Origin: a bacterium
Lineage (GTDB): Bacteria > Patescibacteriota > Minisyncoccia > Phycocordibacterales > UBA9973
Direction: 5' to 3'
Length of the DNA stretch: 40,650 nt
Assembly: GCA_037140115.1 (NCBI GenBank)
Contig: JBAXFB010000001.1
Coordinates: forward strand, 1 to 40,650
Shown piece after piece: positions 19,879 to 40,650 of the stretch. The position numbers and the translations under genes are program-made. The notes below the pieces were generated by a model. The model saw only the letters and a list, made by a program, of their open reading frames with translations, did not search any database and was not told the DNA's origin. How positions within the stretch are numbered: position 1 is the stretch's first letter; every line of letters starts with the position of its first letter.

Positions 19879-20397
19879 ATGAGAAGAGTGCCACTTGCAA
19901 CTGGGGAAATTTACCACATCTTTAATAGAGGAGTCGACAAGAGAAAAATTTTTTCTGATCAAAAAGACCTGGATAGATTTTTTGAAAGTATTTTAGAGTT
20001 CAATAACATCGAGCCAATTGGAAGTTTGTTTGAAAAGAGTTTCCAGAAAGACAAAATTAAAAAGCCTCTCGTGGAATTTGTAGCATATAATATTTTGCCG
20101 AACCATTTTCATTTCGTTTTGAAACAAGTTTCTGAAAACGGCATCAGTGAATTCATGAAGCGCCTCTTGGGAGGTTATACGTGGTATTTCAATCATAGGC
20201 AAAAGAGATCTGGCTCCTTATTTCAAGGAACTTTTAAAAGCAAGCATATAGATTCCAACGAATATCTTTTACATGTGAGCGTCTACGTAAATTTGAACGA
20301 CAAAATCCCACTTGGCGGTTTAACCGCCAAGTTGAACAAATCGAGCTGGAATGAGTATGTAAATCCGGATTTAGTTAATAATTATGAACGAATATGA
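19879..20397 (+). CDS. IS200/IS605-type Y1 (HUH) transposase-like protein, REP-associated tyrosine transposase (RAYT/COG1943-like), interrupted by an in-frame TGA
   Basis: YHIFNRGVDKRKIF, HUH motif LPNHFHFVL, GSLFQGTFKSKHIDSNEYLLHVSVYVNLN with catalytic-Tyr context. Homolog-like sequence continues in the same frame after TGA 20395-20397 up to TAG 20515-20517. Confidence 0.8.
   Translation: MRRVPLATGEIYHIFNRGVDKRKIFSDQKDLDRFFESILEFNNIEPIGSLFEKSFQKDKIKKPLVEFVAYNILPNHFHFVLKQVSENGISEFMKRLLGGYTWYFNHRQKRSGSLFQGTFKSKHIDSNEYLLHVSVYVNLNDKIPLGGLTAKLNKSSWNEYVNPDLVNNYERI
20307..20333. repeat. REP-like palindrome copy 2, inside the transposase CDS (encodes PLGGLTAK)
   Basis: ccCACTTGGCGGTTTAACCGCCAAGTt, 24 of 25 nt identical to copy 1. 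Confidence 0.85.
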
Positions 20398-20592: not shown

Positions 20593-21237
20593 ATGATAAT
20601 CACATATTTCGGTAAACAATTTTTTAAGGTACAACAGGGAGAAATGGTTCTTTCGTTTAATCCTGTGAGTAAGGGTTCAAAGACTGGCATAAACGCTCAT
20701 TTTGGTGCCGACATAGCTCTTGTCACCACAAATCATCCAGACTTCAATGGCATAGATCAGCTTGCTCATGGTGAACGTGTGCCTTTCGCTGTGACAGGCC
20801 CGGGGGATTACGAAGTAAAAGAAATTTTCATCAAAGGAGTTTTGTCTGATGCATTAATTGGAGATAAGAAATTCATAAATACAATTTATTCTCTTACTGT
20901 AGATAATATAAATATAGTTTTTCTCGGGGCTCTTTCGAGTGCAGATTTACCTAAAGAGGCGATAGAGGCAGTGGGCAGTCCAGATATTCTTTTTGTGCCT
21001 GTGGGAGGCCTGTCTGCGCAGGCAGGAAATGGAGTGCTTGATGCAAAAGGTGCTAGCAAGCTCGCTGCTGCTCTTGAGCCTAAATTAATTATTCCGATGG
21101 ATTATGACCCTGCATCACTTAAAGCTTTTCTAAAAGAGTCTGGTGAGGAAAAGGCAGAAGTAGTCGACAAATTGACACTGAAGGCAAAAGATTTAGAAGG
21201 TAAAGAAGGAGAAGTAATCGTATTAAAAAGTCTATAA
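20593..21237 (+). CDS. MBL-fold metal-dependent hydrolase-like protein (UPF0173-like, degenerate metal motif)
   Basis: MIITYFGKQFFKVQ...ALVTTNHPDFNG...ILFVPVGG...LIIPMDY follows the short MBL-fold pattern. TATAAT at 20580-20585 favours ATG 20593 over the track start at 20557. Confidence 0.6.
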   Translation: MIITYFGKQFFKVQQGEMVLSFNPVSKGSKTGINAHFGADIALVTTNHPDFNGIDQLAHGERVPFAVTGPGDYEVKEIFIKGVLSDALIGDKKFINTIYSLTVDNINIVFLGALSSADLPKEAIEAVGSPDILFVPVGGLSAQAGNGVLDAKGASKLAAALEPKLIIPMDYDPASLKAFLKESGEEKAEVVDKLTLKAKDLEGKEGEVIVLKSL

Positions 21238-24015: not shown

Positions 24016-24105
24016 CTCCTCTTGAGGAGTACTCCGACCTAGGTCGGAGGGAGGTGGACGAATTTATCCACCCCGTCTCGCAAGCGAGCCACCCCTCAAG
24101 AGGGG
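24016..24105. repeat. 90-nt GC-rich multi-hairpin intergenic element
   Basis: Five consecutive hairpins: CTCCTCttGAGGAG, CTCCGACCtaGGTCGGAG, GGTGGAcgaatttaTCCACC, CTCGCaaGCGAG, CCCCTCaaGAGGGG. The terminal hairpins are inverted-repeat-like. GC-rich in an AT-rich background. Confidence 0.7.
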
Positions 24106-37323: not shown

Positions 37324-37360
37324 CTCCCCCTTGATAAGGGGGAGAATCAAAGAGGGGGTC
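37324..37360. repeat. GC-rich hairpin element (CTCCCCCTT-gat-AAGGGGGAG ... GAGGGGGTC), same family as the in-frame elements; may double as the rbfA terminator
   Basis: 9-bp G/C-rich stem 26 nt downstream of the rbfA stop. Core architecture (CTCC..CTT-nnn-AAG..GGAG then a G-rich tail) is shared with 38323-38412 and 40250-40308. Confidence 0.55.
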
Positions 37361-37369
37361 TTATACATC

Positions 37370-39746: not shown

Positions 39747-40650
39747 ATGCCCAAATCAAATGAAAATTCTGGAAAGAAAGGCCGAAAAATATATATGGAT
39801 TATGCATCTAGCGCTATTTCTTCTGTTGCGAACCCTGGAGCCATCCATGAACTTGGCGTCAAAGAGAAAAATAAGCTAGAAGTCGCTCGCAAGACAGTGG
39901 CTACGATATTACACGCTCATGCAAATGAGATAGTCTTCACCTCTGGGGCCACTGAAAGTAATAATTTGGCGATTTTGGGCTTGGTTCGTAATTTTAAAAA
40001 TCCGCACATTGTAACTACAAATATAGAACACGCGTCTGTGCTTGAAGTTTTTAAATATTTAGAAAACACCAAGCAAGCTGAAGTGACATATGTACCTGTC
40101 GAAGCAAGCGGGATTGTTGATGTAAATAAAATTAAAAAAGCATTAAAGCAAAATACTGTGCTGGTGTCAGTGATGTATGCCAATAATGAGATAGGTACCG
40201 TGCAGCCCATCAGGGAAATTGCCAAAGAGATTCGGCATTTTAGAAAGACACACCTCACCCGCCTTCGACACCCTCTCCTTAACAAGGAGAGGGTTGGGGA
40301 GAGGTTCCCTTTTTTTCATACAGACGCAACTCAAGCGGTAAATTATTTACCTATCAAGGTGGAAGTGCTTGGTGTAGACATGATGTCTTTTAATGCAGCG
40401 AAAATCTATGGACCGAAAGGTGTTGGCGTTTTGTATCTGAAAAAAAAAACGTCACTTGTGCCGATCATGTTTGGCGGAAATCAAGAATTTGGTTTACGCC
40501 CAGGTACAGAGAGTGTGGCGTTGGCTATCGGGCTCGCCAAAGCTCTCGAGCAGGTGGAAAAAATAAAAGAGAAAGAAGTGGTGAGATTAACCAAACTTAG
40601 AGATTATTTCATAAATAAAATTACTAAAAACTCTGCGATCGCAGAAAAAT
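39747..40650 (+). CDS. Cysteine desulfurase (NifS/IscS/class V aminotransferase family), partial, runs off the right edge
   Basis: Hand translation: MPKSNENSGKKGRKIYMDYASS...FTSGATESNNLAILG...TTNIEHASV...SVMYANNEIGTVQPI...FFHTDATQA...SFNAAKIYGPKGVGVLY...GGNQEFGLRPGTES. Absent from the ORF track, probably because there is no stop inside the window. An alternative start is ATG 39795. Confidence 0.85.
   Translation, partial: MPKSNENSGKKGRKIYMDYASSAISSVANPGAIHELGVKEKNKLEVARKTVATILHAHANEIVFTSGATESNNLAILGLVRNFKNPHIVTTNIEHASVLEVFKYLENTKQAEVTYVPVEASGIVDVNKIKKALKQNTVLVSVMYANNEIGTVQPIREIAKEIRHFRKTHLTRLRHPLLNKERVGERFPFFHTDATQAVNYLPIKVEVLGVDMMSFNAAKIYGPKGVGVLYLKKKTSLVPIMFGGNQEFGLRPGTESVALAIGLAKALEQVEKIKEKEVVRLTKLRDYFINKITKNSAIAEK
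40250..40308. repeat. ~57-60-nt GC-rich hairpin element in frame in the cysteine desulfurase gene
   Basis: CCCTCTCCTT-aac-AAGGAGAGGG core (40271-40293) flanked by ACCTCACCC / GGGGAGAGGT. Encodes THLTRLRHPLLNKERVGERF just before the conserved FHTDA motif. Confidence 0.7.

What the first reader, a model, noticed from the sequence alone, without database searches (positions are those of the whole stretch)
40250..40308. Related GC-rich hairpin element in frame in the cysteine desulfurase gene, same orientation relative to the coding strand as in infB
Between the conserved IREIAKEIRHF and FFHTDATQA segments the gene contains CACCTCACCCGCCTTCGACACCCTCTCCTTAACAAGGAGAGGGTTGGGGAGAGGTTC. Its core hairpin is CCCTCTCCTT-aac-AAGGAGAGGG, flanked by the imperfect inverted ACCTCACCC/GGGGAGAGGT. 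On the coding strands the two genic copies align: infB has CCCCTCCTTGTGAAGGAGGGGGCTGGGGGTGGT and this gene has CCCTCTCCTTAACAAGGAGAGGGTTGGGGAGAGGT. Both therefore encode a PLL-x-KE-x-x-G peptide (TPLLVKEGAGGG versus HPLLNKERVGER). Two independent in-frame insertions in conserved enzymes suggest one of two things. Either only frame-preserving, orientation-compatible insertions survive selection, or the element is adapted to be translated.
Basis: seen in the sequence. Interest (0 to 1): 0.6.

Follow-up and report, generated by a model that had tools for sequence, protein, structure and literature searches.

The report
Triplex-type hairpin repeat inside cysteine desulfurase
A small GC-rich hairpin repeat of the old, unexplained BoxC/PIT "triplex motif" kind sits in frame in a surface loop of the cysteine desulfurase gene of an ultra-small (CPR) bacterium. 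It is one of about 20 copies in the genome, 11 of them inside housekeeping genes, and the same sequence forms the end repeats of tiny DUF559-nuclease cassettes in related genomes.

Summary
A perfect 11-bp hairpin lies at 40270-40294, flanked by ACCTCACCC and GGGGAGAGGT. It sits in frame in a type-I cysteine desulfurase and adds about 15 residues between the IREIAKEIRHF helix and the FFHTDATQ strand.

It belongs to a repeat family of about 20 copies in this 0.62-Mb Nomurabacteria-type genome. Eleven copies are in frame in housekeeping genes: infB, ligA, mnmA, gyrB, leuS, guaA, cca, dus and others. None disrupts a gene.

Each unit is pyrimidine arm, purine arm, then a mirror purine block. That is the published BoxC/PIT/TMECO intrastrand-triplex motif, which is reported as strictly intergenic in E. 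coli.

Orthologs show an empty 36-37-residue loop, the same element, or unrelated perfect palindromes at the same site. Inside the element, synonymous codons are about 90% identical, against about 44% in the rest of the gene.

The claim of "same orientation as infB" has no meaning for this copy, because it scores equally on both strands. Two-hairpin copies occur in genes in both orientations and at least three frames. This favours survivorship over adaptation to translation.

Pairs of these motifs flank small DUF559 nuclease genes here and in relatives, and one such end repeat is 36/38 identical to this element.

The scan has found this phenomenon before on other CPR DNA and on infB of this window. 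I found no published description for CPR.

The parts
39747..40649 (+). Cysteine desulfurase gene (IscS/NifS type I). First 301 codons only; the gene is cut by the contig end.
   Evidence: Pfam Aminotran_5, E 2e-50. PDB IscS/NFS1 matches at E 1e-55 to 1e-46. The invariant residues H95, D193, Q196 and K219 are present.
40248..40307 (+). In-frame insert, codons 168-187 (THLTRLRHPLLNKERVGERF). It is translated as an extension of the helix-to-strand loop.
   Evidence: Ortholog alignment. An AlphaFold model of the 79%-identical ortholog P0002 shows helix 151-164, a low-confidence beta-hairpin at 168-170/177-179, then strand 185-189.
40252..40260 (.). Outer-left pyrimidine block ACCTCACCC. It mirrors the pyrimidine arm and pairs with the tail.
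40261..40269 (.). Spacer GCCTTCGAC. It is a decayed mini-hairpin: GCC-TTC-GGC in the orthologs L095, L096 and L098, and GCCCAA...TTGGGC in L097.
40270..40294 (.). Core hairpin ACCCTCTCCTT-AAC-AAGGAGAGGGT, a perfect 11 bp stem.
   Evidence: The stems are invariant in 7 orthologs while the loops vary.
40296..40305 (.). Third block GGGGAGAGGT. It is a mirror repeat of the purine arm, 10/10 under the triplex pairing rule.
   Evidence: Compared with the TMECO consensus given in PMC4666352.
38324..38408 (-). Two-hairpin copy of the same family, in frame in infB.
   Evidence: Covariance model R1, 55 bits, E 2e-13. Peptide.
37324..37361 (+). Solo hairpin-plus-tail copy of the family, lying between a tRNA gene and the end of infB.

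Best explanation
**What it is.** The element is a miniature copy, without a nuclease gene, of a small mobile DNA family. Its end repeats are BoxC/PIT-type motifs: pyrimidine arm, loop, purine arm, then a mirror purine block. In this lineage the full-size units are cassettes of about 420-450 bp, in which two such motifs in inverted orientation bracket a DUF559 (Vsr-like, PD-(D/E)XK) nuclease gene. The 55-85-nt copies are what remains when the nuclease gene is lost. The two-hairpin form keeps both end repeats. The one-hairpin form, as here, has the two hairpins collapsed into one.

**How it got here and why it persists.** One copy landed in, or was copied into, the loop between a helix and the PLP-binding strand of cysteine desulfurase. 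It persists because its net length is a multiple of three, the frame used has no stop codon, and the loop tolerates extra residues. It is transcribed and translated with the gene as a proline-rich then glycine-rich loop of about 15-18 residues, predicted as a weak beta-hairpin.

**Shown.**
- Membership in the repeat family.
- Insertion relative to orthologs.
- The in-frame state of all 11 genic copies.
- The physical link between the motif and DUF559 genes.
- Nucleotide conservation far above synonymous-site background.

**Inferred.**
- Actual mobility, and the role of DUF559 in it.
- Translation of the insert.
- Neutrality of the insert for the enzyme.
For: **Family.**
- About 20 copies are in the genome, against 0 hairpins of this kind in shuffles.
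- The consensus is a three-way structure, and 14 of 24 pairs show compensatory changes.

**Genic copies.**
- Eleven copies are in frame in infB, cysteine desulfurase, DUF192, ligA, mnmA, gyrB, dus, an R3H gene, leuS, cca and guaA. They sit mostly at Pfam domain boundaries.
- The other copies lie between complete, distinct genes.

**Insertion at this site.**
- The loop between NNEIG and HxDAxQ is 30 residues in archaeal and other homologs, 36-37 in most CPR orthologs, and 51 here.
- The same-genus genome G030 has the empty 37-residue form.
- Unrelated perfect palindromes with stems of 10 to about 30 bp sit at the same site in L014, L015, L023, L025, L026, L027, L029 and L131.

**Nucleotide-level conservation.** Codons for identical residues are identical in 78 of 87 cases inside the element. 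In the rest of the gene the figure is 535 of 1207 (Fisher p 1e-17).

**Motif.**
- The third block mirrors the purine arm at 96%, against 78% for a direct repeat and 76% for shuffled arms. Thirty of 34 units favour the mirror.
- The unit is close to the published TMECO sequences.

**DUF559 link.**
- Inverted motifs bracket the DUF559 genes on C16 and C43.
- Nineteen of 24 stand-alone DUF559 loci in family relatives have such a hairpin within 200 nt, 12 of them on both sides. The background is 0.034 per kb.
- The window element matches both end repeats of the G032 cassette at 36/38 and 35/38.
- Across 61 genomes the co-occurrence counts are 9, 2, 4 and 46.
- E. coli ycjD (DUF559) also has a hairpin of this kind at its stop codon and a BoxC about 190 nt away.
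Against: - No target-site duplication or shared target motif was seen at the junctions.
- No transposition, cleavage or translation was observed.
- DUF559 is not a known transposase.
- The assembled 80% of this genome holds no DUF559 cassette with the CCCTCTCC-type arms of this particular copy. The matching cassettes are in relatives.
- Four of 13 genomes with the repeat show no stand-alone DUF559 gene.
- Genomes within a family are not independent, so the co-occurrence test overstates.
- An AU test does not reject a single origin of the insert in the orthologs that carry it (p 0.175). Recurrent insertion at this site is therefore not proven. The high nucleotide conservation could instead reflect selection on the hairpin.
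Confidence: 0.7

Rival explanations
1. The hairpin is kept by the host because it does something in cis at the DNA or RNA level. Examples would be pausing ribosomes or RNA polymerase before the PLP-binding strand, stabilising or processing the mRNA, or acting as a recombination or replication signal. On this reading the peptide is a by-product.
For: - The stems are invariant and the loops free in 7 orthologs of 68-80% protein identity.
- Synonymous conservation is about 90% in the element against about 44% in the flanks.
- A single origin is not rejected, which would imply long-term nucleotide-level constraint.
- The 3' end of the element plus the host T-run scores as terminator-like.
Against: - Many orthologs, including the same-genus genome, lack any insert.
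- Others carry unrelated palindromes at the same site.
- The same repeat lies in 10 unrelated genes and in intergenic DNA.
- Published tests of PIT elements in E. coli found no promoter or terminator activity (PMC4666352).
Confidence: 0.15
2. The insert is not translated. It is removed from the mRNA or bypassed by the ribosome, as with the GC-rich byp elements of yeast mitochondria or the gap in T4 gene 60.
For: It is a GC-rich hairpin insert in an AT-rich genome, superficially like byp elements (my own knowledge, not tested here).
Against: All 11 genic copies here, and all 7 ortholog copies at this site, keep the reading frame and lack stop codons, even though only about half of the element's frames are open. 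Removal or bypass would lift that constraint.
Confidence: 0.04
3. The extra loop has been co-opted as a functional part of the enzyme, for instance as a partner-binding beta-hairpin, and is conserved for that reason.
For: The peptide HPLL(N/G)KERVGER recurs in several orthologs. The model gives a beta-hairpin.
Against: - Conservation is at the nucleotide level, synonymous sites included.
- Ortholog L099 reads the same DNA in another frame through the hairpin (PSPLSLIRRGGG).
- pLDDT is low over the insert, with a block mean of 51 for residues 171-180.
- Close orthologs do without it.
Confidence: 0.06
4. It is a chance palindrome in a hypervariable loop, with no repeat family behind it.
For: The loop is hypervariable in length and sequence among CPR orthologs.
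Against: - It matches the family covariance model.
- It is 36/38 identical to a cassette end repeat in another genome.
- No such hairpins appear in shuffled genomes.
- The local fold z-score is -4.1.
Confidence: 0.01

Closest known systems
BoxC / PIT elements / TMECO intrastrand triplex motifs (Hoyne et al. 2000 and Holder et al. 2015, the latter read as PMC4666352)
   Same: - The same three-block plan: pyrimidine arm, purine arm, then a second purine block that mirrors the purine arm.
- Near-identical sequence to the E. coli units. For example, CCCTCTCCCTTGAGGGAGAGGGTTAGGGTGAGGGT in E. coli against CCCTCTCCTTAACAAGGAGAGGGTTGGGGAGAGGT here.
- Stems conserved and loops variable.
- Pairs in inverted configuration occur.
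- Found widely across phyla.
   Different: - In E. coli the motif is reported as always intergenic, and without any linked mobility gene.
- Here more than half of the copies are in frame inside essential genes, and pairs bracket DUF559 genes.
- The block ends carry a T:A.T triplet where the consensus has C:G.G.
Rickettsia palindromic elements (RPE; Ogata et al. 2000, as summarised in PMC10969869)
   Same: - A palindromic repeat family in a small genome.
- About half of the copies are inserted in frame in unrelated housekeeping genes.
- The copies are read through as extra peptide segments that are compatible with the fold.
   Different: - RPEs are about 100-150 bp, AT-rich like their host, and confined to Rickettsia.
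- They have no triplex-type block structure and no known nuclease partner.
- I found no sequence relationship.
[quoted passage not shown]
   Same: - Small size and terminal inverted repeats.
- The ability to fold as a long hairpin.
- The end repeats are shared with a longer unit that carries a gene.
   Different: - No target-site duplication was seen.
- The partner gene is a Vsr-like nuclease, not a transposase.
REP elements mobilised by RAYT (Y1) transposases
   Same: Short GC-rich palindromes scattered through a genome that also encodes Y1 transposase-like genes.
   Different: None of the four Y1 genes lies near a copy of this family. The nearest copy is 5.9 kb away.
Vsr-fold homing endonuclease I-Bth0305I (grouped with DUF559 in PMC3424549)
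   Same: It shows that a Vsr/DUF559-type catalytic domain can drive mobility of a selfish element.
   Different: That enzyme sits in a phage group I intron and has no hairpin end repeats. No activity is known for the CPR DUF559 proteins.

Membership tests
BoxC/PIT/TMECO triplex motif | Three consecutive blocks, with block 1 (pyrimidine) complementary to block 2 (purine) so that they form a hairpin | tested here: met
   Perfect 11-bp pyrimidine/purine hairpin at 40270-40294.
BoxC/PIT/TMECO triplex motif | Block 3 is a purine block able to lie antiparallel on block 2 (mirror repeat; G on G, A or T on A) | tested here: met
   10 of 10 positions for this copy. Family mean is 96%, against 78% for a direct repeat and 76% for shuffled arms.
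BoxC/PIT/TMECO triplex motif | Match to the consensus CCCTCNCCC N3-6 GGGNGAGGG N3 GGGNGAGGG (PMC4666352) | tested here: inconclusive
   The copy reads CCCTCTCCT-TAACA-AGGAGAGGG-TTG-GGGAGAGGT. The spacing fits. Three mismatches all fall at the last triplet (T, A, T in place of C, G, G).
BoxC/PIT/TMECO triplex motif | Intergenic location (23 of 23 copies in E. coli K-12) | tested here: not met
   This copy and 10 others are in frame inside genes.
BoxC/PIT/TMECO triplex motif | Forms an intrastrand triplex in vitro | not testable with these tools
   Needs CD or NMR on the oligonucleotide.
Rickettsia palindromic elements | Sequence homology to RPE-1 to RPE-10 | not tested
   No RPE sequences were at hand. 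Size, base composition and host differ, so RPE is treated as an analogue only.
Rickettsia palindromic elements | Palindromic repeat found in frame in many unrelated housekeeping genes | tested here: met
   11 genic copies out of about 20.
MITE | Terminal inverted repeats and small size | tested here: met
   Outer blocks pair. Copies are 40-85 nt long.
MITE | Target-site duplication | tested here: not met
   No direct repeat flanks any of the 14 units examined.
MITE | A longer partner element with the same end repeats that encodes the mobilising enzyme | tested here: inconclusive
   DUF559 cassettes share the end repeats, but DUF559 has no shown transposase or homing activity.
REP/RAYT | Repeats flank or cluster with a Y1 (RAYT) transposase gene | tested here: not met
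   The four Y1_Tnp loci have no copy of this family nearby.
Type I cysteine desulfurase (IscS/NifS) - host gene | Aminotran_5 fold with the PLP lysine, the Asp and Gln of HxDAxQ, and the catalytic His | tested here: met
   Pfam E 2e-50. H95, D193, Q196 and K219 are invariant. The model matches IscS/NFS1 at TM 0.76. The Cys loop lies beyond the contig end but is present in the 79%-identical ortholog.

The most novel reading that the evidence does not exclude
BoxC/PIT triplex motifs have been known since the 1990s with no function and no known means of spread. On this reading they are the end repeats of a very small mobile unit whose only gene is a DUF559 (Vsr-like) nuclease. In CPR bacteria its gene-less derivatives repeatedly enter the same permissive loops of essential enzymes, such as this cysteine desulfurase loop. 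There they are translated, and they stay conserved at the nucleotide level because the nuclease or the structure keeps acting on them.
Probability: 0.3. Interest if true: 0.8.

Novelty: new variant of a known kind. Interest (0 to 1): 0.6.

Why it matters
- It extends "selfish DNA inside protein-coding genes", so far a Rickettsia curiosity, to the candidate phyla radiation. It shows the inserted repeat is the widespread BoxC/PIT triplex motif, which was thought to be purely intergenic.
- It gives that motif a candidate partner enzyme, DUF559, that can be tested at the bench.
- It explains part of the unusual insertions seen in CPR housekeeping proteins.
- It flags a source of annotation and alignment artefacts: proline/glycine-rich loops that are repeat DNA.
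- The cysteine desulfurase loop, occupied in different lineages by at least eight unrelated palindromes, is a natural experiment on which protein sites tolerate such DNA.

Tried and rejected
- **Rfam.** No family matches the element at gathering score or at E up to 10.
- **Rest of the gene.** The 3' part of the gene was not found elsewhere in the 80%-complete assembly.
- **Target-site duplications.** None were seen.
- **Independent insertions from the gene tree.** The carriers are scattered on the tree (8 changes; well-supported branches force at least 3). However, the AU test does not reject one clade (p 0.175). I therefore do not claim recurrent insertion.
- **"Adapted to be translated".** Rejected, because the fraction of open frames equals that of random windows.
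- **RAYT/REP link.** Rejected on position.
- **Literature.** Searches for CPR plus palindromic insertions, and for DUF559, found no description of this phenomenon.

Full report
**1. The observation**

The window is the whole of contig C1 of a 622,745-bp, 64-contig, 38.9% GC genome that is about 80% complete. Record names of the closest orthologs place it among Nomurabacteria/Paceibacteria of the candidate phyla radiation.

- The quoted sequence lies at 40251-40307.
- The arms 40270-40280 and 40284-40294 form a perfect 11-bp pyrimidine/purine hairpin with loop AAC.
- ACCTCACCC (40252-40260) pairs with GGGGAGAGGT (40296-40305).
- The fold energy is -29.8 kcal/mol, z = -4.1, and none of 200 shuffles folds as well.
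- The element lies in frame in ORF 39747..40649. This is a type-I cysteine desulfurase (Aminotran_5, E 2e-50; IscS/NFS1 structures at E 1e-55 to 1e-46) and is cut by the contig end.
- The peptides quoted for this gene and for infB are correct.

**2. It is an insertion, in a loop that is a hotspot**

In the PDB alignments the query has 29 residues where A. fulgidus IscS has 7. This stretch lies between the helix that follows NNEIG and the strand that carries the PLP-binding Asp and Gln.

Across 80 genome loci, the distance from NNEIG to HxDAxQ takes these values:

| Group | Length (residues) |
|---|---|
| Archaeal, Chloroflexota and other homologs | 30 |
| Most CPR orthologs | 36-37 |
| This window | 51 |

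The same-genus genome G030 has the empty 37-residue form.

Among 50 close orthologs, 12 have the baseline loop and 7-8 have this element. The rest carry other inserts. Many of those other inserts are perfect palindromes of quite different sequence, with stems of 10 to about 30 bp: L014, L015, L023, L025, L026, L027, L029 and L131.

An AlphaFold model of the 79%-identical full-length ortholog P0002 has pTM 0.74 and matches IscS/NFS1 at TM 0.76. It shows helix 151-164, a low-confidence beta-hairpin from the insert at 168-170/177-179 (block pLDDT 51-71), then strand 185-189. I could not compute solvent exposure. That the connection is on the surface is an inference from its position at the far end of the strand from PLP, and from its length variation.

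**3. The repeat family in this genome**

A hairpin search and a covariance model (R1, built from eight two-hairpin copies) find about 20 copies. Shuffled genomes give none.

The full form is: outer pyrimidine block, hairpin A, spacer, hairpin B, outer purine block. It folds as a three-way structure, and 14 of 24 pairs show compensatory changes. The copy in this finding is a one-hairpin form with both outer blocks.

Eleven copies are in frame in housekeeping genes:
- infB
- this cysteine desulfurase
- a DUF192 gene
- ligA
- mnmA
- gyrB
- dus
- an R3H gene
- leuS
- cca
- guaA

They sit mostly at Pfam domain boundaries. The remaining copies lie between complete, unrelated genes: pyrF/PRTase, efp/recA, rpsI/grpE, pilin/T2SSF, PBP/Mur ligase, and upstream of dnaA. 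No gene is split or frameshifted.

**4. Orientation and frame**

- The one-hairpin copies score equally on both strands (21.8 against 20.2 bits for this one). "Same orientation as infB" therefore cannot be defined.
- Two-hairpin copies do have an orientation, with 15-35 bits of difference. They occur in genes both ways.
- At least three frames relative to the hairpin are used. The ortholog L099 reads the hairpin in a different frame from the window.
- Only about half of the six frames of a copy are open: 53% for genic copies, 43% for intergenic copies and 44% for random windows.

The shared PLL-x-KE peptide therefore reflects the same DNA read in the same one of three frames. It is not evidence of an adapted coding capacity. 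Selection that removes every insertion which shifts the frame or brings a stop codon is sufficient.

**5. What kind of repeat**

Each unit is a pyrimidine arm, a purine arm and a further purine block. That third block mirrors the purine arm under the purine-motif triplex rule (G on G; A or T on A). The figures are 10 of 10 positions here, and 96% on average across 34 informative units. A direct repeat gives 78% and shuffled arms give 76%.

This is the published definition of the BoxC/PIT/TMECO intrastrand triplex motif. The E. coli units listed in PMC4666352 are almost the same sequence. That paper reports three things:
- the motif is always intergenic in E. coli K-12;
- it is present in more than 260 genomes;
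- it forms triplexes in vitro, and no mobility gene was found near it.

Membership is therefore met on architecture, partly met on consensus, and not met on location.

**6. Link to DUF559**

- The genome has three small DUF559 genes.
- Those on C16 and C43 are bracketed by two inverted motifs of this family. The outer blocks face outwards, exactly as in the two-hairpin repeats but with a gene of about 300 bp in place of the spacer.
- The third, on C32, is bracketed by a different GC-rich hairpin family that also has short copies elsewhere in the genome.
- In 24 stand-alone DUF559 loci from 61 genomes of the same family, 19 have a pyrimidine/purine hairpin within 200 nt, 12 on both sides. Elsewhere in those loci the density is 0.034 per kb. 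The two loci from this genome were missed only because their stems are imperfect.
- The hairpin plus tail of the cysteine desulfurase element is 36/38 and 35/38 identical to the two end repeats of the DUF559 cassette of genome G032, loop included.
- Presence of strong DUF559 genes and of R1 matches co-occur across the 61 genomes: 9 both, 2 DUF559 only, 4 repeat only, 46 neither (Fisher p 2e-6). These genomes are kin and not independent.
- In E. coli K-12, the DUF559 gene ycjD has such a hairpin at its stop codon. A BoxC lies about 190 nt further on, beside a duplicated fragment of the end of ycjD.
- DUF559 is grouped with Vsr and with a Vsr-fold homing endonuclease in PMC3424549.
- I found no paper linking DUF559 to these motifs.

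**7. History at this site**

Seven orthologs of 68-80% protein identity carry the element at the same place, with two junction types. The stems and outer blocks are invariant. The loop varies (AAC, GGT, GGC, AAT, GCC), and so does the spacer.

Codons for identical residues are identical in 78 of 87 cases inside the element, against 535 of 1207 outside.

On the gene tree the carriers are scattered, but the tree is weak, and an AU test does not reject a single clade (p 0.175). There are two possibilities:
- the element entered once and has been held by nucleotide-level constraint; or
- it has entered, or been refreshed by copying from other copies, more than once.

Both are incompatible with a dead, freely drifting insertion.

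**8. Verdict**

It is wrong on orientation.

The best explanation is a gene-less miniature of a DUF559 cassette with BoxC/PIT-type ends, tolerated and translated in a permissive loop. I put this at about 0.7 for the whole picture, and about 0.3 for DUF559 being the mobilising enzyme.

The scan has reported the same phenomenon before, for infB of this window (e1-3678469) and for several other CPR genomes. I found no published description for CPR.

Noticed in passing
L134 2700-2930 (E. coli K-12 NC_000913.3, about 1351200-1351430): The DUF559 gene ycjD of E. coli has a pyrimidine/purine hairpin at its stop codon. A full BoxC/TMECO lies about 190 nt downstream, next to a duplicated fragment of the 3' end of ycjD. 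The 2015 TMECO paper reports no mobility-related neighbours.
   Followed up: partly
G000 C32 3860-4500 (not in the window); related short copies at window 24066-24100, C2 14333 and C13 7742: A second GC-rich hairpin family (type ATCCACCCCGTCTCG...CGAGCCACCCCTCAAG) brackets the third DUF559 gene of the genome. It also occurs as short copies elsewhere, one of them apparently inside an ORF on C13.
   Followed up: no
L006 2-2887 (G000 C30): The gyrB gene carries an intein (Intein_splicing plus HNH_3, residues about 306-729) as well as a copy of the hairpin repeat at residues 867-882. That is two different selfish inserts in one essential gene.
   Followed up: no
window 40296-40317: The purine tail of the element plus the host codons CCC TTT TTT form a terminator-like hairpin followed by a T-run inside the coding sequence. 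This is a consensus match only.
   Followed up: no
L013, L014, L015, L023, L025, L026, L027, L029, L131 (orthologous cysteine desulfurase loci): At the same helix-to-strand loop, other CPR lineages carry unrelated perfect palindromes with stems of 10 to about 30 bp, all in frame. In several loci the predicted stem extends into the A-rich and T-rich host flanks.
   Followed up: partly
window 20994-21027; C2 18076; C30 3550; C58 1740: A further short palindrome family (CCTGCCTGCGCAGGCAGG) occurs in this genome. One copy lies near the RAYT-like Y1 gene of the window (20047-20292).
   Followed up: no
G000 versus G030 (same genus): The complete same-genus genome has no stand-alone DUF559 gene and no match to the repeat model at E 1e-4, whereas G000 has 3 genes and 16 matches. 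The family is therefore very patchy among close relatives.
   Followed up: partly
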